Assembly: GCF_009914755.1 (NCBI RefSeq)
Contig: NC_060948.1
Strand: one strand, 5' to 3'
DNA from: the human T2T-CHM13v2.0 reference genome, Homo sapiens
Length of the DNA stretch: 64,000 bases
Shown: piece by piece, positions 1-41,768 of the stretch
Numbering within the stretch: position 1 is the stretch's first letter
Layout of the letters: every line of letters begins with the position of its first letter
Translations under genes and position numbers: made by a program
Notes under the pieces: generated by a model
The model's input: the letters and a program-made list of their open reading frames with translations, nothing else
Databases searched by the model: none
Told to the model about the DNA's origin: nothing

Positions 1-3000
1 CTCTTCAGAATTAGAGATTATGGGAAAGGTTGAGCCCATGGATGTTAACTGGCATATATTAAAGGATAAGGACATAACTCCCCAATGGGAGGATGAGACC
101 TTGGTTTGGTGTAGCAGGTTTCCTTCTATTGACCCATGAATTTTAAAAGAGGTCTCAGGTAGGAATTTGGGGTTATAACACATATAAGTCTAGCCATTTC
201 CTGGGTCACAGACTGAGTAGTTTCGTTGTGAGTACAAGTTTCTAGGTGGGTCCCTGTACACTTTTAATAAGTGTGATATAACAGGGTTTTGGTTATGGTG
301 CTCCCTGACCATATTGTTAGTGCAGTGTGGGCACTCTTCTCTGGTCTCCTTTTCTGAAACAAATAAGGGGAGTATTATAGTTAGGAGGAAAAGAAGTGGG
401 CTTAGCTTTCCTATTGCCTGGAATAGGAAATAAGTAAAGAGTAACATGTTTATACCAGGGAGGAAAAGAAGAAGTTTTTACACAGGGGAGGAGGTTGAGC
501 AAAGTGAGAGAACAATAGTAAAACAATGATTGGATTTAAGATTTTTATCACTATTTTATTATATTTTACTCCAGCTTCAAACGTACGTACAGTAGTCAGC
601 TTCCAGGATGACTACAGCAGGGCTGTTGACTCCTCAAGTTTTAGCTGAGAACAGACTAGTCAGCTTTCGGAATGACCAGAGTAGGGCTTCATCATTTCTC
701 AGGGCAAATAGGTCATAGGATTAGCCAGCTCAGATGGTCTGGGTCATGTTTGCTGGTCCACTTGTCTTGGGCTGCAAGTTTTAGTTGACTGTGGTGGATC
801 CAACGCACAATTTCTGCAATGTTAACAGCAGTGGAAGTGGACAAGGTTGCAGGATGGGGCCCATCCCATATGGGTTCTAGAGTGGTTGGATTTTATTTCT
901 GACCTACACAGAGTCCCCAGGTCTAAAGTGGTGTGCTGTGTTTGTTGGGCTTATGGACAATCTTTCCCATACCCAGCCATGGACCTCTTGCATGGCTCTC
1001 TTTAACGCCTGCCTTTGCCTTCTTAAAGTTAATTCCCTAGTTTGCAAAGTTCACCCCTAATTTGAGCTATGATTGGGGATGGCCAGTGGAAAATAGTCCC
1101 TGAACTGTCTCGGTCACAAATTTCAGTCCATTTTCTGACCCTAGAGTTAGAGGCATTCTCAATCTGGGGATATCGTCTCTTAACAGTACTTCTGTTACTT
1201 CTCATGATTTCTCTGTTAGGGTGGGGAAAGCCTCAACTCATCCTGAAAAGGTACAGAAAATCACCAGTATGTACTTACAGCCCACTGATTGGGGCATCTC
1301 AGTGAAGTTTCTAAGAAGGTTTTCACAGGGTGTGGCTCCCATTTCCTGAATTCCCAGGGGCCAAGTGGGCCCTTGTCATGGAATGTTCTGGGCACAAGTT
1401 AGACATTGTTTGCAGACAGATCAAGTGATGACAGTGAGCTGTGGCACATAGAAATGGTGTCCTAGCAGTGTTTTCAGTGACATTTTTCCCATGTGGGTTC
1501 CTTGATGGAATTGTTTTACAAATTTTGGGGCCAGCATTTCGTGGTTGGCTAGCCTCCTATTGGAGAATTTTCACCGTCCCTTTTTATATATTTTCCAGAC
1601 CCTTGGGAAAAGCAGAGCTTCTCATTTGGAGGTAACTTGAAACCTCTGAGAGGTGCATATTTGGGAGGAGAGTCAGCTATGGCTGTCTGTCTGTCTATGG
1701 GTAGTCATTGCTGCCCCTTTTGCATACCTGTCTACCTTTTTGTTCCTTTTGGCCTCCAGTGATCCTGGCTTTTGGTGCCCCTTGCAGTGCATAGCAGCTG
1801 TCTTCTTTGGAGTCCATACAGCATCTAAGAGTTGCAGAATTTTTTCTTTGTACTTTTTTTTCTTTTTGGCCCACCACAGTTAAGAATCCTTTTTCTTTAT
1901 ATATAGCCCCATTATCAGGCAGCGTGGCAAAAGTATACTTGGAATCAGTATAAACATTGGCCATTTTACGTTTTGTCAGCAGAACGCTCTCATTAGGGCT
2001 ATTAGCTCTGCCTTTTGGGCTGATGTTCTGGTGGGCTGAGCTTCTACCACTGAATCTAATGTTATCACTGCATACCCAGTTTCACGGACCCCTTTCAGTA
2101 TATAGTATTTACCATCTGGGTCCCAGAGGGGTTGCTCTATAAGGTCTTTCTGGCTTGAGAATACATCATCTACTGTTTCCACAGAGTCATGAAGGAGGAC
2201 CCCTGGTTTGACTGGGACTAAGGTAGCCAGGTTAAGGGTGTTTATTATTTCCAAAGTTATGTCGGGATTTTTGCATATGAGCCCCTGGTACTGAGTCACT
2301 CTTGGATTTGATAACTAATAGTGCGCTGTCTAATCCATTAAAGTTAGAACTGACTGTGGTATACCCAGATGGTCAGCTGTTGTCTTAGAGCTAGTTTTCT
2401 ATCTTGTTGTTCCAATAGGGTGGTGTCAGCTAGTGCCCTAAGGCAAGGAGGCTATGCTAGGGCCAAGGAGTTCAATTGTGTGGATAAGTACATCACCGGG
2501 CGAATTCATGATTTCACAACTTGGGTCAGGACACCTATAGCCAATCCCTTTTATTCATGGACATGTGGAAAGAAAGGCTTACTTATATTTGGCAGTCCTA
2601 TGGCTTGGGCCTGTGTTAAGGCTTCTTTGGCTTGTTTAAACACCTTCTTTTCCTGGACAGCCTCTCAAAGGAGGGGTTTCCTTTCCCCTCTCTTTGTGCC
2701 TTTATATAAGGGCTTGGCAATTAGTGAGAAATTTGGGACCCAGATACAGCAGAACCCTGCATTCCCCAAGAATTTTCCCATTTGGCACTGGGTGGTTTGA
2801 GTTGAGAGTGCATAAAGACATGGCTTTTGCTCACTGCTGAGCTGGTGTTCCCATTGGCTTACTATGAAGTCCAGATATTTGACACTTTCTTGGCAAATTT
2901 GGCCTTCTTTCTGAATACGTTATAACCAGTTTTCCATAAAGGAGATGGAGGAAGTCTTGGATTCCTTGGTATCTGCCCCCTGGGGTTGGGGCTGCTAGGA

Positions 3001-6000
3001 GAAGGTCGTTTATGTATTGTAGCAAGGTGTAGTTGTCATTTGGTGTGGTGAAGGCCTTGATGTCTGAGGCCAGTGTGTCTCCAAAGATTGTAGGAGTGTT
3101 TTTGAATCTTTGTGGGAGTCTAGTCCATGTGAGCTGCTCCCCTGTGCCTGTGACTCAATCGTCCCATTGAAATGCAAAGATGGGCTGACTAATTGGTGCC
3201 AGGCACAGATAGAAGAAAATATTCTTTAAGTCTAGTCAAGTAAATCAGGCAGCACTTGCCAGAATGAATCTTATTAGCATGTACGGATTTGGTATCACCA
3301 GGTGGAAGGTTACAGTAGCCTGGTTCATTTCATGTAAGTTTTGCACTGGTTTAGATTTACCAGACTCTGTATTTTGTTTTGGTAGCAGTGGAGTGTTCCA
3401 GGGTGACTCACACCAGACTACCAGACTAAGATTCTGTGTTTGAAGGGTCACTTTAAATGTTTGTGAATACCCCGCGTGTCTTCTCAGAGAAATAGGTATT
3501 GGTGAACCTGAACTGGAGTTGCTCCTGGTTTTAGCTTTACTATTATCAGTGCCTGATTTACAGCCTTTACAGCCAGGCTCAGTGGGTTATTGTTAGCCCA
3601 TACTCCAAAAATTTTACCCAGTAGTGTAAACACTTTCTCCAGCCCTGGCTTATGAGACAGTTCTGGTGACTGTTTTGTCTATACTCTTCATTCCTCAGCC
3701 TGCAGAATAATGAGGGTTAACACCATGACCTTTGGGTGAGTTAGGCTTAAAGTTATATCCTCGTGTGGCCCAAAAGAAATCTGTGCTGTCAGTTTCTGGA
3801 GCAGATCTCTTCCATGTAGGGGATCTGAGCAACTTGGGAGGTATAGGAATTCATGTTGGACTTCTTGTCCCTCTATGACATACCTTCTAGGCCAGCAAGA
3901 TGGCCTCCTTTCTGGATCCCTTGTAGCCCCAATAATAGTTGTATCATGTTTAGATAGTGGCCCTATGGGCTGTGTCACTACTGAGTGTTTAGAGCTGGTG
4001 TTCACCATAAAGTCCATCTGTTGCTCCCCTACTTCTACTGTGATCATGGGCTCCTGGGGACTTGGGAGATGGAGCCCGGTCTTGCATAGTCTTCCTATTT
4101 TTCGGTCTCTGCCAGCCCAATTAAGTTGATGCCTGGCTCCCTCATGGTGTGGTGGTCCTTGGCTGGCTGTTTGATAGTTTTGTGTCCTCTGTTATTTCTT
4201 TTACTACCCTCTAAACACTTATTTTTCCAGGGACCCCCTTTTTTTGCAGTGCAAATATTGATCTCTATCTAGTCTCAGCTGACTTTTGGGTCTCTGCCCT
4301 GCTTGGCCCCTTCCACATCTGAGTCTGCATCTGCATCTGCTTGTGATGATAGCTTCCCTTTCCATGAGGGCTGCCACTAGTAGATCGGCCTTCTTCCTGA
4401 GTCTCCAATCAGCCTCACTTTGTGCTTTCTGGTCACAGTTAACATACACCTTCGTGGCCAATTCTGAAAGCTGGGTGGCATTCATGCCTGCAAAACCATC
4501 TAGCTTTTGCACTTTTCATCTTATGTCCCCCTGGGCTTGTCCTACAAATGCTGCATTTACTATCTGCTGGTTCTTATCCTTGGGGTCAAATGGAGTGTAA
4601 AGCCAGAATGCCTCAAACAGTTTCTAATAAAACTTGCTAGGGCTCTCGTCAGTTTCTTGAAGCACTTCTGAGATTTTTTCTATATTGATTACCTGTTTTC
4701 TGCCTTCCTTTAGCCTTTGCAAGAGTGGTTTTCAGTATGCCTGCAGATGCTGAAACTGGTCAAATCATCTGGGTCCCAGTGGGAGTGTGCTTCTGGGAAC
4801 TGGACCTGAGAGTATGCCTGGAAATTAAATGTGCCTTCTGGCACATGGGCTTCTGGCCAGTTGAGGGCTGAATGAGCCATCCTTCCATGCTCTTTGGTGT
4901 TAAACAGCATCAGGAGAAGATGTTTACTATCTGGACAAATTGAATTATGTGTCTGGAAAATGGACTGTATCAGATCTATGAGGGCCAGGGGCTTCTTCAT
5001 GTAGGAGAGAATATGGTGTTTCCAGTTAGGGGATCAGTGATTGAAATAGGCTGGTAGATAAGGGTCCATTTCCCCCCTTACGTATGGCCATATTCATCAA
5101 AGTAGAGGCCTCCCCAAGTCTCCTTGAAAGGCATCTGCAGAACCAGGGCATGGCCATAGCAGAGGCAGCTCACTTGATTATTCTGACACTCCTCCTTGAC
5201 CTCCTGGGGCAGGGGCTCTGATTTCTCCCTTTGGGGTGAAACCCAGGGTGTGTCACCATCTGAATTTGACTCCTCATGGGCCATTGGCCTTGGTAAAAGG
5301 GGGCTAATTGGGGTATAGGGAGGAGGGATTTCTGTCTCTTCTGGTGGTTTCCACAAAGCCAGTTTTTCTTGCCCTTCTTATGGCTTTCCCTTTTTCTCCA
5401 TTGCTGCTGGTGAAGCTGATTCCTCTTTCACTTTAGGCTCAGCTTGAGCAACAAGCGTTTTGCAGTAAGCCATCAGGAAAGACTGTAGCCATGCTGGTTG
5501 GGATGATATTTAGCCATAAGTCAATATAAAAAAATTGGTCTGGATACCCTGGCTATTCTCTGACCCCAGTCACCACTTGATGTGCATGGTCAATTATTCC
5601 CCATCTATTGTTCCTTCAGCTGGCCACCCAACACTAAAATAGGGCTTCTCTATTTTACAAAGACTCTTTTACCTCTGGGGAGTCGACTTGATACTACAAT
5701 TCCCAGTGTAACATTTCTTAAACTTTTTAACGTGTATTCTAATATGGTGGGTTTTGACAACTTCCCTCACATCTCCTCCCAGTTATAGTGTCATACACTT
5801 ACTCTTTTACTTTTGCTTCAGAATGATTAGACCACCTCTCCTGTGGGAGTATTTCAGATGATGCTTAGCTTTAATGGATGGTTTGTATAACCCCTGAACC
5901 CAGACCACCACAATCACTAAATTGTGTGGTGCCTGACTAAGCCATATGTGGTAGTTCCGGAGGACATATGCCAGTAATCCTGGTTGGTCCCACACTTCAC

Positions 6001-6442
6001 TTGGGACATATGGTCTATGCTAAGAGACTTGCAGCCCCACATACATCGCCCTACTCTTGCACATGCATTCACACAGTTTCCACTCTCAGTTCCTCTTCAG
6101 AGGTTATGGTGTAGGTTTCATCTGAATTAGAGAGCAAATCTTGTGTCCTGATTTGGATAACTAGATACGCACTGGGAGGTGATCAGACTCCCATTCCATC
6201 TTTATGGTATGGGTCCTTCCTTGGGCCCCAAACCTTCCCATGGTTCAGCAGCATGCTGTCCCTGGAATTGTCCTGTAGCCCCTTAAGTTCCATTGTGCTT
6301 TCGGGGGGTGCACAGGGTCACAGGACATCTGGCCTCTCTTTCAGGTTGAAGTTCTTCTGATGGTGCACCTGGGGTCACAGGTCTTTCCTGGCCTGGAGCT
6401 CCAGTCTGACAGGCAAAAGAAACAGCATACCTGTTGTCTCCA

Positions 6443-6460
6443 ATCCTGGATGAGCTCCCA
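6443..6460 (-). promoter_or_regulatory. Retroviral primer-binding site, tRNA-Pro-like
   Basis: Minus strand reads TGGGAGCTCATCCAGGAT just after the LTR end ...CAACA; close to the tRNA-Pro PBS TGGGGGCTCGTCCGGGAT. Confidence 0.75.
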
Positions 6461-6465
6461 GAAAA

Positions 6466-6590
6466 TGTTGCAGGAATTAAGGAATAGTAGAGACCAGTGG
6501 GTGGAAAAGAAGAATTGTATTGTGTGCACCCTGATTTAACAGATTAACATTTAAACACTGAGCCCCAAACAAAGACAGGGCTTGACTTTT
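6466..6590 (-). mobile_element. U5/R remnant of the 5' LTR (only ~125 bp)
   Basis: Begins TGTTG on the plus strand next to the PBS; shares the ctgagccccaaacaaagac motif with the LTRs at 35280 and 40407; similarity stops at ~6590. Confidence 0.75.
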
Positions 6591-18576: not shown

Positions 18577-22030
<3,454 letters not shown>

Positions 22031-22884: not shown

Positions 22885-23020
22885 TGGCCATGTGTGGTGG
22901 ATCATGCCTGTAATCCTAGCACTTTAGAAGGCTGAGGCTTGCAGATTACTTGGTCAGGAGCTTGAGACCATCCTGGCCAACATGGTGAAAACCCGTCTCT
23001 ACTAAAAATATAAAAATTAG
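22885..23020 (+). mobile_element. Alu left arm (right arm at 35095-35253)
   Basis: Alu 5' end through the A-rich linker ctactaaaaatataaaaattag, then directly the L1 5' UTR. Confidence 0.9.
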
Positions 23021-26000
23021 GTGGAGCCAAGATGGCCAAATAGGAACAGTTCCAGTCTACAGCTCCCAGCAAGAGCGATGCAGAAGATGGCTGATTTCTG
23101 CATTTCCAACTGAGGTACCGGGTTCATCTCACTGTGGAGTGTTGGAAGGTGGGTGCAGGACAGTGGATGCAGCATAGTGAGCATGACCCAAAGCAGGGTG
23201 TGGCATCACCTCACCTGGGAAGTGCAAAGGGTCAGGGAATTCCCTCCCTAGTCAAAGAAAGGGGTGACAGATGGCACCTGGAAAATCAGGTCACTCCCAC
23301 CCTAATACTGCACTTTTCCAATGGTCTTAGCAAATGGCATACCAGAAGATTATATCCTGTGCCTGGCTCAGAGGGTCTTATGCCCAAGGAGCCTCACTCA
23401 TTGCTAGCACAGCAGTCTGAGATTAAACTCCAAGGGGGCAGCGAGGCTGGGGAAGGGACACCCATGATTGCTGAGGCTTGAGTAGGTAAATAAAGAGGCT
23501 GGGAACCTCGAACTGGGTGGAGCCCACCGCAACTCAAGGAGGCCTGCTTGCCTGTGTAGACTCCATCTCTGTGGGCAAGGCATAACCAAACAAAAGGCAG
23601 CAGAAATCTCTGCTGACTTAAATGTCCCTATCTGACAGCTTGAAGAGAGTAGTGGTTCTCCCAGCATGCAGCTGGAGATCTGAGAATGGAAAGACTGCAT
23701 CTTCAAGTGGGTCCCTGACCCCCAAGTAGCCTAACTGGGCGACATCCCCCACTGGGGGCTGACTGACACCTCATACAGCAGGGTACTCCTCTGAAACAAA
23801 ACTTCCAGAGGAACGATCAGGCAGCAATATTTGCTCTTCACCAATATCCGCTGTTCTGCAGCCTCTGCTGCTGATATTCAGGCCAACAGGGTCTGGAGTG
23901 GTCATCCAGCAAATTCCAACTGACCTGCAGCTGAGGGTCCTGACTGTTAGAAGGGAAACTAACAAACAGAAAGGACATCCACACCAAAACCCCATCTGTA
24001 TGTCACCATCATCAAAGACCAAAGGTAGACAAAACCACAAAGATGGGGGAAAAAACAGAGCAGAAAAACTGGAAACTCTAAAAATCAGAGCACCTCTCCT
24101 CCTCCAAAGGAATGCAGCTCCTCACCAGCAATGGAACAAAGCTGAATGGAGAATGACTTTGGCCAATTGAGACAAGAAGTCTTCAGACAATCAAACTACT
24201 CCAAGCTAAATGAGAAAGTTCAAACCCATGGCAAAGAAGTTAAAATCCTTAACAAAAAAATTAGACGAATGGCTAACTAGAATAACCAATGCAGAGAAGT
24301 CCTTCAAGGACCTGATGGAACTGAAAACCAAGGCAAGAGAACTATGTGATGAATGCACAAGCCTCAGTAGCAGATCAGTTGGAATTTGCTGGATGACCAC
24401 TGCTGTATGAGATACAGCTACTACTGGATCTGCACTGAATCTGCTACTGGATCAACTGGAAGAAAGGGTCTCAGTGATGGAAGATGAAATGAATGAAGTG
24501 GAGAAGAGAAGTTTAGAGAAAAAGGAATAAAAAGAAACAAAGAAAGCCTCCAAGAAATATGGGAATATGTGAAAAGACCAAATCTACATCTGATTTGTGT
24601 ACCTGAAAGTGACGGGGAGAATGGAACCAAGTTGGAAAACACTCTGCAGGATATTATCCAGGAGAACTTCCCCAATCTAGCAAGGCAGGCCAATATTCAA
24701 ATTCAGGAAATACAGAGAACACCACAAAGATACTCCTCAAGAAGAGCAACTCCAAGACACATAATTGGCAGATTCACCAAAGTTGAAAACAAGGAAAAAA
24801 TGTTAAGGACAGTCAGAGAGAAAGGTTGGGTTACCCACAAAGGGAAGCCCAACACACTAACAGCTGATCTCTCAGCATAAACTCTACAAGCCAGAAGAGA
24901 GTGGGGGCCAATATTCAACATTCTTAAAGAAATGAATTTTCAACCCAGAATTTCATATCCAGCCAAACGAAGCTTCATAAGTGAAGGAGAAATAAAATCC
25001 TTTACAAAGAAGCAAATGCTGAGAGATTTTGTCACCACCAGGCCTGCCCCAAAACAGCTCTTGAAGGAAGCACTAAACATGGAAAGGAACAACCAGTACC
25101 AGCCACTGCAAAAACATACCAAATTGTAAAGACCATTGAGGCTAGAAAGAAACTGCATCAACTAACAAGAAAAATAATCAGCTAATATCATAATGAAAGG
25201 ATCAAATTCACACAAAACAAAACAAAAGCCAAAATGGACAAATGGGATCTAAAGAAACTAAAGAGCTTCTGCACAGCAAAAGAAACTACCATCAGAGTGA
25301 GCAGGCAACCTACAGAATGGGAGAAAATTTTTGCAATCTACTTATCTGACAAAGGGCTAATATCCAGAAGCCACAATGAACTCCAACAAATTTACAAGGA
25401 AAAAAAAAAAAAAAAACCCATCAAAAAGTGGACTAAGGATATGAAGAGACACTTCTTAAAAGAAGACATTTATGCAGCCAAAAGACACATGAAAAAATGC
25501 TCATCATCACTAGCCATCAGAGAAATGTAAATCAAAACCTCAATGAGATACCATCTCACACTAGTTAGAATGGCAATCATTAAAAATCAGGAAACAACAG
25601 ATGCTGGAGAGGATGTGGAGAAATAGGAACACTTTTACACTGTTGGTGGGACTGTGAACTAGTTCAACCATTGTGAATGTCAGTGTGGCAAGTCCTCAGG
25701 GATCTAGAACTAGAAATACCATTTGACCCAGCCATCCCTATTACTGGGTATATACACAAAAGATTACAAAACATGCTGTTATAAAGACACATGCACACGT
25801 ATGTTTATTGTGGCACTGTTCACAATAGCAAAGACTTGGAACCAACCCAAGTGTCCAACAGTGATAGACTAGATCAAGAAAATGTAGCACATATACAACA
25901 TGGAATACTATGCAGCCATAAAAAAATGTTGAATTCATGTCCTTTGTGGGGACATGCATGAAGCTGGAAACCATCATTCTCAGCAAACTATCACAAGGAG

Positions 26001-26090
26001 AAATACCCAAACACCACATATTCTCACTCATAGGTGGGAACTGAACGATGAGAACACAGGGACACAGGAAGAGGAAAATGACACACATTA
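23021..26090 (+). mobile_element. L1PA copy A: 5' UTR and ORF1, ~3-kb ORF2 deletion, ORF2 end, truncated 3' UTR
   Basis: Starts gtggagccaagatggcc; ORF1 peptides (KRPNLHLICVPESDGENGTKLENTLQDIIQENFPNL); ORF2 start (ggatcaaattcacac) joined via aacaa to KAKMDKWDL at ~25215; no poly-A. Confidence 0.95.
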
Positions 26091-26769
26091 AGAAATACAC
26101 CTCCCTAGCTACAAGTTTCATTTGAATAACTTGATTTCCATAAATAATGCCAATGCACTTACACCAGTTAAAATGTACCAATATCTGGATCTCTGACTCA
26201 TTGAAAAATTACTGAGCCAAGTAAAAACTCCAACAAATATATTTCTCTACATACAATTTAGCCCGGAATAACTTGAATTCTATCAATAATGCCAGCCCAC
26301 ATACACCACTTAAAGTCTGCTAATGTCTAGATTTCACATTGTCTGCCTGGTCCCAAGAATGTGCCTAACTAGCATAGCTTTTCCTTCATATATTAAATAA
26401 CTTTTTTTTTTTTTTGTATTGAGCAGCAATCTTTTAATCTCAGGGAGAAAGCAAAGTCTGTCTCTGTAGGGGTTTTGCTTTGTGGATTACTCTCTAGCAT
26501 TAAGAAGAGAACCTGTACGTCAGGTGCTTATTTGTTTGGATTCTTTTAAAACAAGAAAGAGCATAAATATATTGAATCCTGGATGTCTACTTTAAAATCA
26601 TCTATCAAATATCTTTCTTAAACAGTAGAGAGTACTTGACGGTTATTTCTGTTTAACAGCTTCTGCAAAAGAAGAATTATCTAGCCCCAACTATAATTCT
26701 TGAAAACCTGGTATTTGCTTGGCTTCTTTATTACAAGATTCTAGCAACTTTTGTATCATAAGACACATT

Positions 26770-27589
26770 CATTTTCTTAATCCAGTCTATCATTGTTGGA
26801 CATTTGGGTTGGTTCCAAGTCTTTGCTATTGTGAATAATGCCGCAATAAACATACGTGTACATGTGTCTTTATAGCAGCATGATTTATAGTCCTTTGGGT
26901 ATATACCCAGTAATGGGATGGCTGGGTCAAATGGTATTTCCAGTTCTAGATCCCTGAGGAATCGCCACACTGACTTCCACAATGGTTGAACTAGTTTACA
27001 GTCCCACCAACAGTGTAAAAGTGTTCCTATTTCTCCACATCCTTTCCAGCACCTGTTGTTTCCTGACTTTTTAATGATTGTCATTCTAACTGGTGTGAGA
27101 TGGTATCTCATTGTGGTTTAGATTTGCATTTCTCTGATGGCCAGTGATGATGAGCATTTTTTCATGTGTTTTTTGGCTGCATATGGCACATATACACCAT
27201 GGAATACTATGCAGCCATAAAAAATGATGAGTTCATGTCCTTTGTAGGGACATGGATGAAATTGGAAATCATCATTCTCAGTAAACTATCACAAGAACAA
27301 AAAACCAAACACTGCATATTCTCACTCATAGGTGGGAATTGAACAATGAGATCACATGGACACACGAAGGGGAATATCACACTCTGGGGGCTGTTGAGGG
27401 GTGGGGCGAGTGGGGAGGGATAGCATTGGGAGATATACCTAACGCTAGATGACGAGTTAGTGGGTGCAGCGCACCAGCATGGCACATGTATACGTATGTA
27501 ACTAACCTGCACAATGTGCACATGTACCCTAAAACTTAAAGTATAATAATAAAAAAAGAAAAATGTTCACACACACACACACACACAAA
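26770..27589 (+). mobile_element. Young 5'-inverted L1 (L1PA2-like) with 12-bp TSD
   Basis: Inverted piece ~26770-27181 (minus), direct 3' UTR 27182-27563; TSD aagacacattca at 26760-26771 and 27590-27601; GAG at the ACA/ACG/GAG diagnostic site (gatgacgagttag). Confidence 0.92.
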
Positions 27590-29676
27590 AAGACACATTC
27601 AGTATCTGTCTTATAAAAACGTTATGCATAATGTGTATGCATAATGTGGTGTGCCAATATACATATGTTGATGTGTATTGTGTATGCCTTCCAGCTGTAG
27701 TGAAATTTAGCTCTTCACCAATCATCAGTGACTGAATTTTCTTTCTTGGGACCCCAGAAACTTAGACTGTCTACAGTTTCATTTGCTATATTAGCGTTGC
27801 ACAGAAATTATTAAAATGTAATGAGAAAGAAAAGGGGAGAAATATAAACTCTATGGTTTAGCTTCTAATCATAAATCAACATAATTGACTTCACCCCATT
27901 TATCTCAACTTGAACAACCAAATTTTTCAAAAGCTTCTTAACATCTCTGATTTATAAAAAACACAGATTGGGTTAAGAAACCTTGAAAATATAATATCAG
28001 AAAGTTCTACATGTACGCCTTTCTTTACAATTTTCAGAAGATATAGTCCAACGCTATCAATTTTTTATAGGCACCTGAGACTCTAGATATTAAAATACTT
28101 AGATTTTAGAATATTTATCTTCATTTCTAGCATCTAACCACTAGATGCTAAAAGCAACCTTAAGAATTCCACTCCCAGTCATGAATCAGGCTTAGAGTAA
28201 AATCTATTGATCTATAGAAAACCCTAGAAAATCACAAGGAATGTGTGTCAGCTCCATGAGCTCATCAATAATTGTTCCCCTTCCACACTATGCTTCAGCC
28301 ACGGTGATCTTGCCATTTTTCCTAACACGATAAGCAGGCTTATGCCAGGAGTCTTTACACTTTTTGATCCTACTGCATAATTACAGGCTTATTCTCTTGT
28401 TCTTTCATTTAGGTATTGACAGTCTCCATGTAAGCAAATTATTTTATAAGTTTTTTATATACAACCAAAACGTACTTGGTAATATAGAATCCTGCCTAAT
28501 GTATTTTATATGGAATTGATAACCTCACTTAAGAACAAAGCAAAAGCAAAACAAAGCCGGCTTTATACTATTACCACCTAATATTCAGGAATCCAAATTA
28601 GTAGATTGACTTATTTTACTCAACGTTAGTAACAGGTAAAATTATAAATCTTCTAAATATAAATAAACTCATGTGAAAATACAATTATCGCTTCATAAAT
28701 AACAAGTAATTAAAAAAATTGTCTAGACCTTGGAAACCAATAATTATTTATATCAACCAATCAAAGAGTTAATCAAGAAAGACAAGTTGAAACCGCTGGG
28801 AAATTTTTTGCGGTCTTTGCATTCAACCATCCAGGCACAGATGACGTTTCAAAAGTTAAATTCCACATTCGCAAAGTGAGGCTGGGATTTCTGATCTAGA
28901 AAGGTGTGAAGAATAATGTCTGTGCTAATTTATTGAGTTTGTTCTACCCTTTAGGGGTTACATAAATTATTGATGAGGCACACTTATCTCTGTTTTGTCT
29001 GATGCAGAACTGATTTATAGTTAAAAATGTTAAGCACAGGTAACTAACATTTAAGTCCTGGGAGCAAAGGATACCGTTGATGTATAAAATAGACAACGTG
29101 TAAAATAAAGTAAAAGATGAATAGATCTTTATTTCAAAAAAAATCTTGACTTTCAAAAGTATTAAAATAACCTGAGGTATTTAAAAACTTAGTTACATAA
29201 ACATAACAGAAGATATTTTCAAAAATGCGCAAAACTCTAAGCATTAATTCAGAAAATTAGCTATAATTTTAATGTGAGAAGAAAGTGAAGGCTAACGCAG
29301 AATTTTAAGCTATCTCCCTACATGATAAAGGGGAGTGTTAATACAGACCCAATTTTAAAAATTGATATTTTTATATTACACTCTGTCAAAACGCTGTTGG
29401 AATTCCAGCTAAGCCTTAAACAACAAAGGGCACATCTTGAATAAATAAAGAATACCTGACTATCAGAGTTAACATGTTATAATATTTTAAATATAGCATT
29501 CTAAAAAATAAAAGCACAAAAAATCCCACAAATTTATGGCTAATGTGAAGTAAAAACACAAACTGAAACTGTCCTAAACTTTTTAGACAAAAACTTTAAA
29601 CCTGCAGTTTTAAGTATGAACAAATAAAAAATGACAGATGAAAGATAAAAGATCAACATGGGAATATCAGTGAGAT

Positions 29677-30641
29677 TGGAACAGGAATTAAAAGAAATTA
29701 AAGAATGTGTAAGCAGAAACTCAGTTGTATGTAAGAAAACCAATCACCCCTTATTCAGCCTGTGACCCAGGAAATAATCAGCTATATGTATGTTATGACC
29801 CTAAGTGCTTACCCTGTGAATTCTGGTTTGAGGTACATATTAAATCAGAGGGAGAAAAAGAAGGAGAGTTTATAGGTCAACATGAAGAAGCCCCTCCCTC
29901 CTATAAAGGGCCTATTCTCTTGTACTTTGATGCCTGCCAGGCTGGGGATGATCATAATCTTAAAACAAAACAAAACAAAACAGAAACAGAAGCAGTCCGC
30001 GGTGGTTTGACACAAGAAAGGTTTAACAGCAGCAGTCTCAAATATCTAGATGGAGACCACAAATCGGATACCCAGACTGTAACATTCAGTGATCTATACT
30101 AACACAGCTCCTTAAAGCCAGAGCTACCTTTTTGGTCTAAAGGATGCACAGCACTATTACAAGTTGATAGACAAGGAGCTGGCTCTGGAATTCTGCTACT
30201 AACTGTCAAAAAGGCTAGAAGTAAGCATTTTGATCAGTCAATGCCTGAGCTTTCCCCATCAACCAAAAATGTGTTTGTTCAACTAGCTGAAAACATAGCT
30301 GGCGGCTGAGGAATTTCCTCATGCTATGTAAGTGTAGGAACTAATACGGGGGACCAGTGGCCATGGGGGGGCAAAGGAATTAATGCCACAAGATAACTTC
30401 ACTTCGCCAAACCCTACCAATAAAGCCAGCAGTCTCAGCCAGTGTTTGCTTGTTGCAAATCTCCATAATTGGAAAGTCTTGTATTGCCTGATGGGAAAAG
30501 GCAGAATGCTTAAAAGGTAACTTAACTCTTTGTTCAGGGCTCAGTCCTTCAGAGGTTAATCTGAGTGGGCCGGTGCATCTACATAATAAGTATCCTCCTC
30601 AACCCCATCGGTCCCTCTGACTCCTTAAAAAAGTCCTTCCA
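29677..30641 (+). mobile_element. Collapsed class I ERV: LTR 5' end, env SU fragments, LTR 3' end (LTR15/HERV15-like)
   Basis: LTR-start-like aacaggaattaaaagaaattaaagaatgtgtaagc; env YSACDPGNNQLYVCYDP and TKNVFVQLAENIAG...GTNTGDQWPWG; LTR R/U5 ctctttgttcagggctcagtcc...ggtgca. Confidence 0.8.
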
Positions 30642-31289
30642 GAAGACAAATTAAAAAAGAAAACCTGAAAAATCTAGAGATAAGAAGCACAATTACTTGG
30701 ATTAAAAAAAAACTATTAAATAACTTTAACAACAGATTGAGCTTCAGTAAATCTGAAGACATAAAAATTGAAACAGCCTAAAATGAGAGCAAATATCTTT
30801 GTGTCTTGTCAATGAAAATACTTTAAAATTTCCTATTCTGGAGTGTTCTGAAGAAGAAATAAGAAACCACTTGAAAAGAAAGGTTGGTGGAAATTTTACA
30901 GAAGTGCTGATTTTTCACCAACTGTTTCCTGTTCTACTTTCCAGCCCCTTTGTATCTCCATCTTATAAATTGGGCAAATAATATTTTTCTTTCAGAATAG
31001 TGTTAAAAACTCAGGTGAAATGGCTATTGAAGAGCTAATACTGGAAGACCAGGTTAGAGTAAGAAAAGAGTTATTGGTCCTTCAAACTTCAGAGGGATAT
31101 GACACATGTACTGTAAAACAGGAGCTAATCTTATTCTAAAGAGTTCTTAGCTTTGGCACTAACACTATTGCTCATGGCCTTATAAATGTTTGTTATCAAA
31201 TCTATCTAATTAAACCCTGTATGTGGTGTCTTTGAGTAATCATCTTGATTTTTTTCTTGACCTATTTTCTCTTAAAAGGTTTTTTTTAA

Positions 31290-31885
31290 CTCAGAAAGGG
31301 CAACATCATTAATCAGTAGAGAAATACAAATCAGAATCACAATGAGATACCACCTCAGGCCTGTCAGAATGGTGACTATTAAAACGTCAAGAAATAACAG
31401 ATGCTGGAAAGTCTGTGGAGAGACAGGAAGACTTCTAAACTGTTGGTGGGAAAGTAAATTAGTGTCCACACTGTGGAAGACAGCGTGGTAATTTGTTCAA
31501 GGATCTAGAAACAACATTGACCGAGCAATGTCATTACTGGCTATCTACCCCCAAAATACAAATGTTTCATATTTGAAAGATACCTGCACGTGTATGTTTA
31601 TTGCAGTACAATTAACAGCAGCAAACACATAGAATCAACTCAAATGCCGACTTTACTCAGAGAACATTATCAACTAGATACATAAAATGTAGTACATATA
31701 CACAATGAAATACTTTGCAGCTTCAAAAAGCAATTAGATCATGTCTCTTGCAAGGACATGGATAAAGATGGAACCATCATCCTCAGCAAAGTAACACAGG
31801 AACAGAAAACCAAACACTACATTTCCTCACTCATGAGTCAGAGCTGAACACTGAGAACACCTGACACAGAAAAAGAAACCACACT
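31290..31885 (+). mobile_element. Older L1 (L1PA8-16/L1PB-like) ORF2 end and 3' UTR fragment
   Basis: Diverged caatgagataccacctca...ctcagcaaagtaacacaggaacagaaaacc; stops at cacactgggg. Confidence 0.8.
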
Positions 31886-35094
<3,209 letters not shown>

Positions 35095-35253
35095 AAAAAT
35101 ACAAAAATTAGTCAAGCATGGTGGTGTGTGTGTAGTCCCAGCTATTCAGGAGGCTGAGGCAGGAGAATTCCTTCATCCCAGGAGGCACTGGCTGCGGTAA
35201 GGTGAGACTGCACCCCAGCCTGGGTGACAGAGCAAGACTCTGTCTCAAAAAAA
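35095..35253 (+). mobile_element. Alu right arm (partner of 22885-23020)
   Basis: aaaaatacaaaaattag linker, right monomer and short A tail. Confidence 0.9.
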
Positions 35254-35279
35254 GATAAAAACTTTGGAAATATGACTGG

Positions 35280-38200
35280 TGTTGATGGAAACAGAGTATG
35301 AGTGAGGCTGATATGGGGAAACAGGAGGATTTATTTAGGTGCACCAGCTCAGTGAGCTTATATCCAAAAAGGCTGAGTATTGAATAAAGACTGAGCAGGG
35401 TTTTTATGAGCAAACTTACAGAAGCAGACCTAAAGCAACTAATTATACAATGAACAGTTATGTAATTTACAGCATAATTGTTGACTTGCATAACTTCTTG
35501 CCTTGCATAGCTGGGTTTTGCAGCTAGGTTGAAAGAGAAACAGGAACATACAGATTTTACGAAATACAAGCATTGGTAAACATAGTCATAATTAATGCTT
35601 CAGAGAAGGAGAGACAGTAAAGTAATTTGCTTTCCTTTTGAACTTTGCTTCAGTGTAGGGTATTTGTGACCCATTCCCTTGGCCTCAACTTTTTAGACAG
35701 TGTTATTTTATAACTGTCTTGGAGTGAGATAGCTACACAGAGAAAAACATGTTTTCTTTTCATTTGAACCCTTGTCTTGCCAAATTTTTCTGTTTTTTTA
35801 AAAAATCATTTTATAGGATAAATTTAATCGAAGGCATTAGTATCATTTTATTCTTTATGGGAAAGCATGTTTTCTTCTTTTGGCACAGGTTGACATTTAG
35901 TTAGAGCTATTAACTGAGTAGCAGTGGGCCTGGCTATGTTGTTTTGGGGCTATGTAGTATGAGTAGAGGGTGGGCATCATTTTTTGGGTGCTTTTTTATA
36001 TCAAGGTTATGTGGGGAAAGTGTTAGCTTTCCTGTTTCTTTTGGCTTTTGACTTCCCTGCCTTTTGGTGTTCCAGATAATGCACTATTGCCACTTTTTCT
36101 GGAGCATATACAGCTGCTAAGAGCTGTAGGATTTTTTCTGTCCACTTTATTTATTTGCCTCCAGTTGTCAAGAAATTTTCTTTTTATATATAGTTCTATG
36201 AACATGTAGTGTGGTAAAAGCATATTTAGAATGTGTTTAAATATTGACCTTTTTTTCTTTTGCAGCAAAAGGGCTCTTGTTCGGTCTATTAATTTTGCCT
36301 TTTGGTCTCATGTTCCAGTAGGCAAAGATTGAGCTTCTATCATTGAGTTTAATGTTACCACTGCATACTCGGCTTGTTGGATTTTTTTCTAGCTCAAAAC
36401 TCTTTCAGTTATGAAGTATTCAACATCTGGGTTTTTGAGGGATTGATCTGTAAGATCTCCTGGTTCAGCAAATACGTGATCCACTGTTTAGACACAGTTA
36501 TGGAGGGGAGCATCAAATTTGACTGGGAGCAGGGTGGTTGGGCTTAAGTTGTTTGCTGTATTTTAAGTAATGTAAGGGTTTTCATATAGAAGTCCTTGGT
36601 ACTGCGTTATTCTCAGATTTGACAACTAATGATGGCTTATTTGTTCATCAAAGTTTTGACTGAGTGTGGCACATGGACTGTTAGCTGCTGTCTCAAAGTA
36701 AGTGTGTTATCCTCTTGCATTAGCAAGGCAGTGGTGGCTAATGCCTTAAGGCAAGGAGGCCATCCTAGTGCCACAGAGTCTAATTGTTTAGATTAGTATT
36801 TGACTGGACAATGCTATAATTTTATAATTTCAGTTAAGAACCACATAGCCATTTCTTTTCATTTATGCAGGTACAGAAAGAAAGGCTAAGTTACATTTGG
36901 CAGACCAAAGGCTGGGACTTGAGTTAAGGGTTTTTTTGATTTTTTTAAATGATATTTGCTGTTTAGTTTGCCAGAGGAGGGTTTCGTTTTTACCCCTTTT
37001 GTAATATTATATAATGGCTTAGCCATCAGTGAAAAATTTATGATTTAGATATGGTGGAATTTTTCTTCTTTTAAGAATTTTTTAATGTAATGCCTAGTGG
37101 TTTGTGTCAGGAGTGTACAAACGGCCTGTTTCTGCTTATGGCCAAGCTGGCATTCCACATGGCTTACTATGAAACCTACATATTTGACATTTTTATGAAT
37201 AATTGGTCCTTTTTTAAAAGATAATTTTAGCCTGTTTTTCATAGGAGATGGAGGAGGTCTTGAGTTTTTTGATAACAGTCCTCCTGGGTTGGGGCTGCTA
37301 GAGGAAGGTCATCCACATACTGCAACAAGGCACAGTTAACATTTGGCAGGTTGTAGGCTTCAAGGTCAGTGCTTCCCTAAAGACTGTAGGAGAGTCTTTG
37401 AACTTGCGGGAGCCTGGCCCAGGTGAGTTGAACAACTTATTTGTTTTATTGAAATGCAAATATAGGGTGACTAACTGGGGCTAAGCAGATATAAAAGAAT
37501 ACATTCTTTAAATTTAGGACTGCAAATCAGGTAGCACTTGCTGGAATGAGATTTATTAAAATACACATGTTCCAAAAGTGGAGTGTTTTAGAGCAATTGA
37601 CATCGAACTAAGACTTCATGTTGGTAAGGCCAGTTTAAATATTTACAGATACCTGGAATAGCTTCTCAGGGGACTGGGTACTGATGAACCCAAATCGGAG
37701 TTTCTTTTGGTTTTAACATGACTACCACCTGTGCATGATGTACAGCTAATCCAAGTAGGTTGCCTTTAACCCATACTCCAGAAATGTTATTAACTAAGTG
37801 AAATAATTTTTTTTTATCCCACCTGCAATTCTAATTTGCTGCTTGCACTTTCTTTGTATAAAGTTTCCATTCCTTAGCCTGCAGGATGATAAGGGTTAGC
37901 ACCATGCTTTTTTGGAGAGTCAGAAAAAAAGTTGTTTTTTTTTTTTTTGCAGCTGAAATGTAATTGGTGCTTTCAGTTTTTGGAGTAATTTTTTTTTTTC
38001 TTAACAAGGGAACTGGACAATTCAGGAGGTATAGGAATTTATGTTGAACTTCCCATCCTTTGATGACACACCTCCTTACCAGAACAGCTTTTTTCTCTGA
38101 GATTCCTGTGGCTTTTATAATAGTTTTATAGCTTCAGATAGTGGCCCTATGGGTTGAGTCAGTATTGAATGTGTAGCCCTGGTGTTTACATAAAGTCCAT

Positions 38201-40785
38201 CAGCTGGCCTTCAACTTTTAATGTGACCATGGGCCAATGGAGTTGTAATAAGAAAAAGCCTGGTCTGTCCTAGTACCCATATCCTTTAGTGCCAGCCAGC
38301 CTGTTTAGATTCGTATTTGATTTTCCCACAGTGAGGCAGCCCTTAGCTGGACTCTTTTATACCACAGTCCTGATTATACTTTTTATTACCTTCTGGACAT
38401 TTATTCTTTCAGTATTTTTCTTTTGCATCACACACATTGTTTTCTCTCTAGCCTCGGCTGGCTTTTAAATTTTTGACTAAATTGACATCTTTCACATGCA
38501 CGTGCACATCCACATTCTTGTATATTGCTAGTCATTTTTTTAATGAGAGCTGCTGCTAAGAGATTGGCCTTTTTTAAACCTCTGATTTGCTTTTTTTTTT
38601 TTTCTTTGCTTCCTGGTGATGGTTAACCTACATTTTGGTGGCCATTTCTGTAAGCTGGGTTGTATTCGTGCCTGCAAAACCATGTACTTTTTGCAGCTGG
38701 TGCATTGGCTTCTAGCCCTTGATGGGATGCCTGAGTTATCCTCTGGCACTCCTCCATGTTGAACAATGTTAAGATAAGTTATCTTCAATTTAGCCAGGTT
38801 GGATTGTGTGTTAGAAAGGTGGACTGTGTTAGATTTATGAGAGCTTGGGGCTTTTCCTTGTAGGAGTTAGTGTGTTGATTTACATTTAGGAGATTAGTGG
38901 TTGAAAAGGGCTGATAGAGGAAGGTTTGCTGCCCCCCACACCAGGATGTGGCACTGGTCATTATAACAGATGAGTCCTTGCATTTCCCTGAGAGGTATTT
39001 ACATAGCTTGACCATGATCAGATTTGAGGCAGCCTGGTTCACTATCCTGAATTCCATCACTGGCCTCTCAAGGCTCCAATTCTTCCCTCTGGGGTGAAAC
39101 CTGGGGTGTACTGGCAATGGAACCTAGCTCCTGGGGGGCTGTTTGCCTCAGCAAAGGGAGGTAGGCTATGAAAAATGGAGGAGAATTTTTTTTTCCTTTT
39201 GTAGTTTTTTAAAACTGGGTTTCCTTTCTGTCCTTGGGACTTTCCTTTTAACTCAGTGTTTGCTGGTGAAGCTGCTTCTATTTTCACTTTTGGCTCGGCC
39301 TGCGCTACAAGTGTTTTGCAATAAGCTGTGAAGCAGGGCTGGATTCATGTTGTTCTTGTTTGTATTATATTTAATTATGAGTTAATATAAGAAAATTGGT
39401 CTGGGTACCCTGGCTATACTCAGACCCCTGTCATTACCTCAAACTCATGACCAATTCTTTCTATGTGTATAGTTTTTTGGGTCACCTATTTAATACCAAA
39501 AGGGGGCCATTTTAGTTTACAGAGAGCTTTTTACCTTTGCAGGGTTAGCTTAATTTTATAGTTTCCTGTAAACCCTTTCTTAAAGTTTTTTTTAGCATAT
39601 ATTTGAATGATGTATATTGTGACAACTCTCTTCCCATTTCTTTTCAGTTATGATGCAGTGTACTCGTGCTCACTTTTTACCTTTGTTTCCAGCCAGTTAG
39701 ACCATCTCCTATTATGGGGGTTTTTAGATACTACTTAGCTTTGGAGAGTTTCTTAAGCCCAACACAATTGCTGAAGTTGTGGGGTAGCTTCTTTTAGCCA
39801 TATGTGGATCACCACTAGTCTTGATCAGCCCCACACTTGGCTTGGAACACATTCTTCACTAAGAGACTTGTGGTTCCTCACTTTATGGCCGATTAGCCTA
39901 GTTAGGCCTCACCACTCACACATCATCCTTCTACCAGTTCTCATGTTCCTGGTTGGGGTGGCGAGTCACTTTCACCACCTCCAGTTTCCTTCTGAGCTGA
40001 TTTAGTGAGCCACTGTCACATGCTGTGTTGGTTGAGGTGTAAGTTTCTTCTGAATTGGTGAACCACTCTTGCGGCCTGCAGCACCTCTGGGTTGGATTAC
40101 CGGTTATAACCTAGGAGGTGATTAGGCTCCCTTTTGGTCCTTGTGGGATGTGTCCTGCCTTGGGTCCCAATACCTTACTGTGGTTTCTGAAGTGAGCTGT
40201 TCCTGGAATCGTCCTATAACCCATTAGGTACCATTGCACTGCTTGGTAGGGGCACGAGGTCACAAAATGGCTGATCTCCCCTCCAGGCTGAAGTTCTCCC
40301 AGTGGTGCTCCTTGGGTCACAGGACTCCTGAGACCCAGGGCTTAAGCCCCAGGGGCAAAGGAGACAGGAAACCTGTCATCTCCACTCCTGGCTGACTGGC
40401 CAATAATGTTGTGGGAAGCAGAGGACCACAGAGATTAATATGGGGAAATAGGAGGATGTATTTAGGTGCCCTGGCTCAGCAGACTTATATCCAAAAATGC
40501 TGAGCATTGAACAAAGACTGAGGGGGATATTTGTAAGCCAAATTACAAAAGCAGAACTACAGAAGCTAATTTGACAATGACAGGTTACATAATTTATAGC
40601 ATAACTGTTGAGTTAGCATAACTTTAGCCTTGCATAGCTTGTAGCCTTGTAGCTGCATTGAAAAGACAAAAAAAAAAACAGTAAGCTTCAAATCTTACTA
40701 AATACAAGCATTGGGAAACATAGTCATAATTAATGTTTCAGAGAAGAAGAGACGTTATAGATATTTATTTTTCTTTTCTTTTCAG
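35280..40785 (-). mobile_element. HERV3/HERV-R-like provirus: two LTRs, gag-pro-pol remnants, integrase and env deleted, G-to-A hypermutated
   Basis: Direct-repeat LTRs 35280-~35783 and 40407-~40785; gag YQPFSTTNLLN...KPQALINLTQSTFLTHNPTW; RT LQYVDDL (~37310-37325); RNase H remnants to ~35800. Confidence 0.92.
40385..40402 (-). promoter_or_regulatory. Retroviral primer-binding site, tRNA-Arg-like
   Basis: Minus strand TGGCCAGTCAGCCAGGAG after LTR ...CAACA; close to the tRNA-Arg PBS TGGCGAGCCAGCCAGGAG used by HERV-R/HERV3. Confidence 0.75.
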
Positions 40786-41002
40786 TGCAGACACTGAAGC
40801 TTGAGCCTGGAATTGTGGAGCCAGTTCTCTCTGCTGTGGGGCCCATGTATGGGTAGAAGTCTCCTCATGACTCAAATCACAGCCTTGGTAACCCACTAGT
40901 CCAGTTCCTAAAAACACCCACTCCTTAGTGTTTCAAGAATCATGCTCTAGAGTCCACTGCCACATTTGAATTTATTGCAATGTTATGGAAATGAGAATTT
41001 TA

Positions 41003-41332
<330 letters not shown>

Positions 41333-41768
41333 ATGTATCTGTTTATATTTCAATGCCAAAATATTTTAAATGACTTTTTAATGATGTGTATAATTTTTCC
41401 AAGTTTAGAAATAAACTCCATTTGTTTGCTTTCACATATTTTGTACATTTGTTTTTATCTTAATAAACTGAGTCTATTGACAGAACTATGAAGATGCTTA
41501 TTTATACCATATCTCATGTTCTACATGTCCAGTTTAGCAAATATGCATTATCCACTTATTTGCTAAAAGCCATCCTTTTTTCTCTTCATAATTTAGATGA
41601 TTCTCAAATATCACACATCATTTTGCAATCTGATTCTAACTTCTATACTGCCAAATGGTCTGCAAAATTAACCTAAAAAAAAAAAAAAAAACAAACAAAA
41701 TAAGTGAAGGCTGACAGAGTAAGTAACGTGATTCAGCTGAAGCTAGTCAATCAGAAAGTTGTACTTAC

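What the first reader, a model, noticed from the sequence alone, without database searches (positions are those of the whole stretch)
35790..39640. HERV3-like provirus with an APOBEC3-type G-to-A hypermutation signature
Seen, using the related provirus at 1-6590 as internal control (viral sense strand): gag attgacttatggctaaat (~5510-5527) versus attaactcataattaaat (~39370-39387), i.e. GAC-to-AAC and TGG-to-TAA. RT aaattcttggggaatgcagggttctgctgtatctgg (~2739-2774) versus aaattcttaaaagaagaaaaattccaccatatctaa (~37045-37080). Peptides are Lys-enriched (IKKFLKEEKF where REFLGAAGF is typical). Changes are strand-specific and occur in GA and GG contexts, not CpG. Established: APOBEC3 deamination of minus-strand cDNA leaves this mark. 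Inference: a fossil restriction event at integration.
Basis: partly seen in the sequence, partly recalled or inferred. Interest (0 to 1): 0.7.

Follow-up and report, generated by a model that had tools for sequence, protein, structure and literature searches.

The report
APOBEC3-edited fossil provirus on chrY
A dead ancient retrovirus copy on the human Y chromosome carries the one-strand G-to-A scarring that host APOBEC3 antiviral enzymes leave, which is real here but is a well-known kind of fossil.

Summary
The element is a class I (gamma-like) provirus with a tRNA-Arg-type primer site.

I therefore compared against closer genomic relatives that are 83-90% alike among themselves.
- At 3191 columns where these relatives agree, the provirus and its old chrY paralogue at 19.5 Mb share 349 changes: 149 G>A against 45 C>T.
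- Outside CpG the counts are 93 of 301 G sites against 20 of 266 C sites (p 1e-12).
- The preference is for GA (50 of 99), not GG (19 of 79), so the footprint is A3F/D/H-like rather than A3G-like.

Controls are clean:
- Eight relatives show no bias.
- Changes after the paralogues split show no bias.
- Flanking intron DNA on the same strand shows no bias.
- LTR and leader are spared.
- Four of eight conserved Trp codons are shared stops.

The site is empty in X-linked OFD1. Editing therefore preceded the duplication that gave six Y copies. This kind of fossil is already described genome-wide, so interest is modest.

The parts
35280..35721 (-). 3' LTR of the provirus
   Evidence: 35280-35639 aligns to 40407-40777 at 285 of 372. 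35554-35721 also matches the 5' LTR of the 19.5 Mb paralogue. It ends in ..CA next to an Alu at 35094-35264.
35722..36020 (-). Internal remnant just upstream of the 3' LTR. Its right edge (36020/36021) is a deletion junction specific to this copy's lineage.
   Evidence: 35094-36019 is 85.5% identical to L031 2448-3380 of the paralogue. Every other copy loses homology at 36021-36029. The paralogue runs on for about 1.5 kb of pol plus an unrelated 1046-base insert.
36021..38269 (-). Degraded pro-pol region. The weak RVT_1 match lies at about 37194-37544. There is a small lineage-specific deletion at about 37565-37575.
   Evidence: Pfam RVT_1 gives E 0.0026 and 18 bits, below the cutoff, with X at stops. 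The region aligns to pol of relatives at 70-76%. The deletion is about 105-114 bases that the paralogue and relatives retain.
38270..38272 (-). gag-terminating TAG, conserved in all copies (the gammaretrovirus-style gag/pro-pol boundary)
   Evidence: The codon starting at 38272 is TAG in all group-1 copies, in this copy and in the paralogue.
38273..39900 (-). Degraded gag. The Gag_p30 match lies at about 38725-38895. There is a lineage-specific deletion of about 325 bases at about 38698-38701.
   Evidence: Pfam Gag_p30 gives E 1.9e-6 and 28 bits against a cutoff of 27.4. The open frame among relatives runs from about 39912. Deletion.
39878..39880 (-). Trp codon turned into a stop by G>A, shared with the paralogue. 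Three more such codons start at 39488, 39377 and 37047.
   Evidence: Of 8 codons that are TGG in all group-1 copies, 4 are stops in both copies, 1 is a stop in this copy only, and 3 are intact. 284 codons were assessed.
40385..40402 (-). Primer binding site, tRNA-Arg type, with two mismatches to the relative L017
   Evidence: Alignment. The reverse complement of L017's site, extended by the inferred T-stem, hits 3 of 3 tRNA-Arg(ACG) genes in this genome.
40407..40778 (-). 5' LTR, missing its first part
   Evidence: It pairs with 35280-35639. This copy lacks L009 3616-3821 of the paralogue, which covers the start of the LTR and adjacent flank.
40786..40997 (.). Right flank, shared with the 19.5 Mb paralogue and with X-linked OFD1
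   Evidence: 86% identical to L009 3822-4032. 40803-41005 is 81% identical to X L032 73-275.
1..6590 (-).
   Evidence: 65-68% identical to the edited copy. 72-80% identical to group-2 copies.

Best explanation
A gamma-like retrovirus with a tRNA-Arg primer site integrated into an intron of the Y-linked OFD1 homologue. In the reverse-transcription cycle that produced this integration, a TC-specific APOBEC3-type deaminase edited the single-stranded minus-strand cDNA. On the sense strand this reads as GA>AA, strongest in TGA. About a third of non-CpG G sites and half of GA sites were converted. The provirus was therefore dead on arrival, with stops at Trp codons in gag and pol.

The locus then decayed neutrally and was duplicated once long ago (the 19.5/19.63 Mb palindrome pair). 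Later this branch was amplified to four near-identical copies, and this branch also lost parts of pol and of the 5' LTR.

Shown here: the strand, context, confinement, timing relative to the duplication, sparing of LTR and leader, and the stops. Inferred: that the agent was an APOBEC3 protein, and that the editing was a single event.
For: 1. Excess. At 3191 columns where at least 3 group-1 relatives are present and unanimous, the changes shared by this copy and the paralogue are G>A 149, C>T 45, A>G 37 and T>C 39, of 349 in all.
2. Non-CpG. G>A is 93 of 301 and C>T is 20 of 266, OR 5.5, p 1.0e-12.
3. Context. GA 50 of 99, GG 19 of 79, GC 12 of 69, GT 12 of 54. GA against the rest gives p 6e-7. 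By the preceding base: TGA 19 of 26, AGA 21 of 43, GGA 10 of 31. Passages read in PMC3909203 give GA as the target of A3A/B/C/D/F/H, with TGA and TGAA reported for A3F.
4. Direction. At the shared G>A sites the sister group has G in 432 of 568 cells.
5. Timing. Changes private to this copy are G>A 24 vs C>T 39. Changes private to the paralogue are 30 vs 38.
6. Same integration. Both flanks are shared. X-linked OFD1 has an empty site, with X 76-324 running on to X 339.
7. Confinement. In the flanking intron, X against the paralogue on the same strand gives non-CpG G/A 50 of 368 vs C/T 34 of 302, p 0.41. GA context there is 12 of 105.
8. Controls. Eight relatives give OR 0.79-1.85, none significant. 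Pairwise counts among relatives are symmetric.
9. Position. LTR plus leader have 8 of 81 G sites edited, against 141 of 463 in gag-pol, p 7e-5. Across the four LTRs there are 5 shared G>A and 4 shared C>T.
10. Replicate. The pol segment kept only by the paralogue shows G>A 56 vs C>T 25, with GA 17 of 24.
11. Lethality. 4 of 8 conserved Trp codons are shared stops. The commonest shared residue changes are E>K 6, R>K 4 and D>N 3.
Against: - G>A is also raised outside GA: 43 of 202, against C>T 20 of 266. A strict TC-specific enzyme does not fully explain this. Sequential editing accounts for part of the GG share, since GG became AA in 10 cases and AG in 8.
- The gradient within gag-pol is noisy. 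Bins of 400 bases range from 15% to 49% with no steady rise.
- The shared branch carries 200 other changes. Some G>A may therefore be ordinary lineage divergence, or decay between integration and duplication.
- The reference state comes from only 4-6 relatives per segment and only from unanimous columns, which drops every CpG site.
- No deaminase can be named from sequence alone.
Confidence: 0.85

Rival explanations
1. The A-rich states are the normal sequence of a distinct, A-rich subfamily that replicated as such. On this reading there was no terminal hypermutation event.
For: This copy and its paralogue are only 70-76% identical to every other copy found. The shared branch also carries 200 changes that are not G>A. 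At 117 of 568 sister-group cells the state is A.
Against: The genome search found no copy closer than about 75% apart from Y paralogues of the same integration (only 40 of 124 candidates were scored). Four of 8 conserved Trp codons are stops shared by both paralogues, and the residue changes show no sign of purifying selection. A replicating lineage could not carry these.
Confidence: 0.04
2. A strand-asymmetric mutation process acted on the locus after integration. Candidates are transcription-associated asymmetry in the then-active Y-linked OFD1 gene, or replication asymmetry.
For: The provirus lies in the same orientation as OFD1P10Y (hub annotation). Shared flank changes lean slightly the same way, G/A 20 vs C/T 10 in 1005 three-way columns.
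Against: In 2176 flank columns on the same strand, non-CpG G/A is 50 of 368 and C/T is 34 of 302, p 0.41, with no GA preference. The branches after the duplication show no excess. LTR and leader inside the same transcription unit are spared.
Confidence: 0.03
3. Reverse-transcriptase error under a skewed dNTP pool (low dCTP) gave GpA-biased G>A without any deaminase.
For: This was proposed for retroviral G>A hypermutants before APOBEC3 was known (recalled, not read here). Sequence alone cannot separate it from deamination. It could fit the raised G>A in non-GA contexts.
Against: From established knowledge, such hypermutants are now attributed to APOBEC3. The TGA preference matches what is reported for A3F. 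Human ERVs as a class show the A3 dinucleotide signatures (PMC6955324, passages).
Confidence: 0.04
4. The excess built up over several replication cycles of sub-lethal editing, with only a small final burst.
For: G>A is raised in all four dinucleotide contexts. Some relatives carry mild GA-specific footprints: the chr7 141.97 Mb copy has GA 14 of 112, against 2 of 88, 5 of 77 and 1 of 65 in the other contexts.
Against: Shared stops at 4 of 8 Trp codons, and E>K, R>K and D>N changes throughout gag and pol, could not pass through a further replication cycle without complementation.
Confidence: 0.04

Closest known systems
G-to-A hypermutated human ERV copies found in genome-wide screens. Read here: Ito et al. 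2020, PMC6955324, passages; Knisbacher and Levanon 2016, PMC4866542, passages. Seen only as references in those papers: Anwar et al. 2013; Lee, Malim and Bieniasz 2008; Esnault et al. 2008.
   Same: A sense-strand-specific G>A excess over C>T, in a GA or GG dinucleotide context, in single proviral copies. It is read as editing before integration. ERV1 is the family with the most edited sites.
   Different: This copy is Y-linked. It is GA-only rather than GG. It was later multiplied to six copies by host duplication, which lets the editing be placed before the duplication. I could not tell whether this locus is in their lists. Ito's supplements hold no copy list. Knisbacher's site file has chrY rows without usable assembly mapping. 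Anwar 2013 is not held.
A3F-type (GA>AA) hypermutated HIV-1 proviruses
   Same: GA preference with T favoured before the G. Here TGA is 19 of 26. The reported A3F motifs are TGA and TGAA (PMC3909203). Both also show many Trp-to-stop changes.
   Different: This is a gamma-like endogenous element with no Vif, tens of millions of years old. The enzyme repertoire of the host at that time is unknown.
HERV-R / ERV3-type class I proviruses
   Same: Gag_p30 and an RT remnant, a gag TAG boundary, and a primer site complementary to tRNA-Arg(ACG).
   Different: The edited copy clusters with one subgroup (83-90% alike among themselves). It does not cluster with the subgroup that holds the window's other provirus. 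The curated family name was not testable with these tools.

Membership tests
APOBEC3-hypermutated provirus | Sense-strand G>A in clear excess of C>T outside CpG | tested here: met
   93 of 301 vs 20 of 266, p 1.0e-12. Pairwise against the chr13 relative: G>A 367 vs A>G 164, and C>T 184 vs T>C 143.
APOBEC3-hypermutated provirus | Dinucleotide preference, GA or GG | tested here: met
   GA 50 of 99 against 43 of 202 elsewhere, p 6e-7. GG is not preferred, at 19 of 79.
APOBEC3-hypermutated provirus | Confined to reverse-transcribed sequence and absent from the flanks | tested here: met
   Flank non-CpG G/A 50 of 368 vs C/T 34 of 302, p 0.41, with GA context 12 of 105.
APOBEC3-hypermutated provirus | Present at integration, so shared by all descendants and not continuing afterwards | tested here: met
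   Shared by both old paralogues. Private branches show G>A 24 and 30 against C>T 39 and 38. Editing between integration and duplication is excluded only indirectly, by the flank control.
APOBEC3-hypermutated provirus | Positional profile that follows single-strand exposure: low in LTR and just after the primer site, rising toward the 3' end | tested here: inconclusive
   LTR plus leader 8 of 81 vs gag-pol 141 of 463, p 7e-5. The segment kept only by the paralogue, further 3', has 29 of 71. There is no steady rise within gag-pol, and env is missing.
APOBEC3-hypermutated provirus | Deamination by an identified APOBEC3 protein | not testable with these tools
   Sequence gives only the motif.
HERV-R / ERV3 (HERV3) family | Primer binding site complementary to tRNA-Arg | tested here: met
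   The site of relative L017 matches the 3' end of 3 of 3 tRNA-Arg(ACG) genes. This copy differs from L017 at two positions.
HERV-R / ERV3 (HERV3) family | Gamma-like gag-pro-pol layout | tested here: met
   Gag_p30 E 1.9e-6. RVT_1 E 0.0026, below the cutoff. A conserved gag TAG.
HERV-R / ERV3 (HERV3) family | Best match to the curated HERV3-int model rather than a neighbouring family | not testable with these tools
   No Dfam or Repbase library is available. The copy clusters apart from the window's other provirus.

The most novel reading that the evidence does not exclude
The raised G>A outside GA (43 of 202, against C>T 20 of 266), together with a strong TGA preference, records an ancestral primate deaminase, or a pair of them, whose specificity differs from any single modern human A3. 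The insertion is Y-specific and can be bracketed: younger than the X-Y split of OFD1 and older than the Y duplication. It would therefore be a dated sample of that activity in a lineage that passed through the male germline.
Probability: 0.12. Interest if true: 0.5.

Novelty: new member of a known kind. Interest (0 to 1): 0.3.

Why it matters
The result shows that a tool-free reading of raw sequence can pick out a truly edited provirus. It also offers a clean worked example, because host duplication of the locus gives internal replicates that separate editing at integration from later decay.

Biologically it adds one dated, GA-type, Y-linked example to a phenomenon already catalogued genome-wide. 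It does not change what is known about APOBEC3 restriction.

Tried and rejected
I worked from the 30 loci plus two smaller fetches.
- Pfam on the three sense frames, with X at stops, gave only two weak hits. Domain annotation of this copy is therefore coarse.
- Looking for this locus in published lists failed. Ito's supplements have no copy-level table. Knisbacher's site file could not be mapped to this assembly. Anwar 2013 is not held.
- A search for ERV3/HERV-R with APOBEC3 terms listed no paper on an edited copy of this family (listing only).
- PMC2657108 turned out to concern a DNA/RNA gradient, not a positional one. The positional expectation therefore rests on recalled knowledge (Yu et al. 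2004 was seen only as a reference).
- The LTRs proved too short and too little edited to test whether edits are mirrored in both LTRs (5 G>A against 4 C>T).
- I rejected the use of window 1-6590 as a sufficient control.
Full report
**What is there**

The window is chrY:25234001-25298000 of T2T-CHM13 (hub note; one search places it at G000:C24).

BLAST against related copies and against itself sets the limits:
- 3' LTR: 35280-35721.
- 5' LTR: 40407-40778, missing its first part.
- The two LTRs are 285 of 372 identical.

Between the LTRs lie:
- An 18-base primer binding site at 40402-40385.
- A leader.
- A gag remnant (Pfam Gag_p30, E 1.9e-6).
- A gag TAG at 38272, conserved in every copy.
- A pro-pol remnant (RVT_1, E 0.0026, below the cutoff).

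Env is absent. This branch has also lost three internal pieces that its paralogue keeps: about 110 bases near 37570, about 325 bases near 38700, and about 1.5 kb of pol at the 36020/36021 junction.

The primer site of a close relative (L017) is complementary to the 3' end of tRNA-Arg(ACG). A pattern built from it hit 3 of 3 such tRNA genes in this genome. The site in this copy differs from L017 at two positions. "HERV-R-like" is therefore fair at that level. The curated family name could not be tested.

**Relatives and history**

A search of the window's own genome with 36100-39740 gave three kinds of match:
- Three further copies on the Y at about 99.6-100% identity.
- A palindromic pair at 19.50 and 19.63 Mb at 81-86%.
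- Autosomal and X copies at only 64-75%.

The 19.5 Mb copy shares both flanks with the window copy. The right flank, 40786-40997, is 86% identical. On the left, the Alu and the 3' LTR region, 35094-36019, are 85.5% identical.

X-linked OFD1 (C23, 13.343 Mb) has an empty site. X 76-324 matches the right flank, and X 339 onward matches the left flank of the paralogue and window 22047-22882.

So there was one integration into the Y homologue of OFD1, after X and Y stopped recombining there. An old duplication followed, and then a recent fourfold amplification.

The 5' LTRs of the two paralogues pair with each other (82%), and so do the 3' LTRs (89%). Within a copy the LTRs are 76-79% identical. 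This fits integration well before the duplication. In absolute terms that means tens of millions of years. I did not calibrate it, and any figure would rest on recalled substitution rates.

**The test**

It falls in a sister subgroup, so I did not rely on it.

The closest independent relatives form a group that is 83-90% alike among themselves and 70-76% identical to the edited copy and its paralogue. I built no consensus. I counted only alignment columns where at least three of these relatives are present and all agree.

Rows left out of the reference set:
- L016, L026 and L024, which are duplicates of L014, L025 and L018.
- L017 in segment 2, which is the same copy as L027.
- L019, which was left out of the reference set (73-80% identical to the other copies in segment 3).
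- The near-identical Y twins.

At 3191 such columns, the changes shared by the window copy and the 19.5 Mb paralogue number 349:

| Change | Count |
|---|---|
| G>A | 149 |
| C>T | 45 |
| A>G | 37 |
| T>C | 39 |

With unanimous neighbours and CpG excluded, G>A is 93 of 301 and C>T is 20 of 266 (OR 5.5, p 1.0e-12).

At the shared G>A sites the sister subgroup has G in 432 of 568 cells. The direction of change is therefore G to A on the branch that leads to this integration.

**Context**

Edited fraction of G sites by the following base:

| Context | Edited |
|---|---|
| GA | 50 of 99 |
| GG | 19 of 79 |
| GC | 12 of 69 |
| GT | 12 of 54 |

GA against the rest gives p 6e-7.

Within GA, the preceding base matters: TGA 19 of 26, AGA 21 of 43, GGA 10 of 31. 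By the second following base: GAA 13 of 21, GAG 12 of 22, GAT 5 of 7, GAC 5 of 15.

Of the GG pairs counted, 10 became AA and 8 became AG. More than half of the apparent GG edits therefore sit next to an edited G.

Passages read in PMC3909203 assign GG to A3G and GA to A3A/B/C/D/F/H, with TGA and TGAA reported for A3F. The footprint here is thus A3F-like and not A3G-like.

**Controls**

- **Relatives.** Eight relatives were each treated as the focal copy. They give non-CpG odds ratios of 0.79-1.85, none significant. The window copy gives 3.12 (p 4.7e-9) and the paralogue 3.06.
- **Pairwise counts.** These are lopsided for the window copy (against the chr13 relative, G>A 367 vs A>G 164) and symmetric among relatives.
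- **Later branches.** After the duplication there is no excess. The window copy has G>A 24 vs C>T 39, and the paralogue has 30 vs 38.
- **Flanks.** In 2176 columns of flanking intron on the same strand (X against the paralogue), non-CpG G/A is 50 of 368 and C/T is 34 of 302 (p 0.41). GA context there is 12 of 105. The smaller three-way flank set leans G/A 20 vs C/T 10 in 1005 columns. I report that lean as the only hint for a regional bias.
- **Replicate region.** The pol segment kept only by the paralogue was not used above. It shows G>A 56 vs C>T 25, non-CpG 29 of 71 vs 15 of 98 (p 3e-4), with GA 17 of 24.

**Position and consequences**

LTR plus leader (40001-40800) have 8 of 81 G sites edited, against 141 of 463 in gag-pol (p 7e-5). 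Across the four LTRs of the two paralogues there are 5 shared G>A and 4 shared C>T.

This matches the expectation that DNA near the primer site and in the LTR spends the least time single-stranded. That expectation is recalled knowledge; the source was seen only as a reference. Within gag-pol the 400-base bins range from 15% to 49% without a steady rise. I call the gradient only partly shown.

Of 8 codons that are TGG in all relatives, 4 are stops in both paralogues, 1 is a stop in the window copy only, and 3 are intact. 284 codons passed the filters. The commonest shared residue changes are E>K 6, W>stop 4, R>K 4 and D>N 3.

A genome with these stops could not have gone through another replication cycle on its own. 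This places most of the editing in the last cycle.

**What remains open**

- G>A is also raised outside GA (43 of 202, against C>T 20 of 266).
- The shared branch carries 200 other changes.
- The reference states come from only 4-6 copies per segment.
- A low-dCTP polymerase-error origin cannot be told from deamination by sequence alone.

**Comparison with what is known**

Ito et al. 2020 (PMC6955324, passages) report that human ERVs accumulate GG>AG and GA>AA changes with strand bias, and that some copies are hypermutated. Knisbacher and Levanon 2016 (PMC4866542, passages) report that ERV1 holds the most edited sites across vertebrate genomes. Earlier HERV-K cases appear in their reference lists.

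This locus is one more member of that kind. Whether it is already in their lists could not be established. A search combining ERV3/HERV-R with APOBEC3 terms listed no paper on an edited copy of this family (listing only).

**Verdict**

It is a new member of a known kind, of modest interest.

Noticed in passing
L019 (G000:C19:22663365-22667262): A second, independent relative looks hypermutated. Private changes are G>A 80 vs C>T 15 of 137 in 1220 columns. Non-CpG is 44 of 145 vs 11 of 114 (p 5e-5). Both GA (19 of 45) and GG (17 of 50) are preferred over GC (2 of 26) and GT (6 of 24), which is a mixed A3G-plus-A3F-like footprint.
   Followed up: partly
It is not a neutral control.
   Followed up: partly
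L027/L017 (G000:C7:141968962-141976518) and L030 (G000:C19:52952339-52956398): Mild GA-specific footprints in otherwise unbiased relatives. The chr7 copy has GA 14 of 112 vs GG 2 of 88, GC 5 of 77 and GT 1 of 65. L030 has GA 12 of 63 vs 6 of 69, 2 of 37 and 4 of 36.
   Followed up: no
window 23020-35094: About 12 kb of repeat-rich DNA separates the provirus from its original left flank at 22047-22882. It has internal matches to 18574-19670, 25221-26086 and 26770-27563. In the 19.5 Mb paralogue and on X the corresponding flanks are contiguous, so this is a later insertion block in this branch.
   Followed up: partly
window 41005-41336 and 35094-35264: Two Alu-like inserts are absent from X-linked OFD1. 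The one at 35094-35264 abuts the 3' LTR and is shared with the 19.5 Mb paralogue. The one at 41005-41336 interrupts the right flank.
   Followed up: no
L006 51-1096 and L009 about 3560-3620 (G000:C24 19.50 Mb copy): The paralogue carries an unrelated 1046-base insert inside pol and a T-rich expansion in its 5' LTR.
   Followed up: no
window 38270-38272 and all aligned relatives: The gag-terminating TAG is kept in every copy examined despite heavy decay elsewhere.
   Followed up: no
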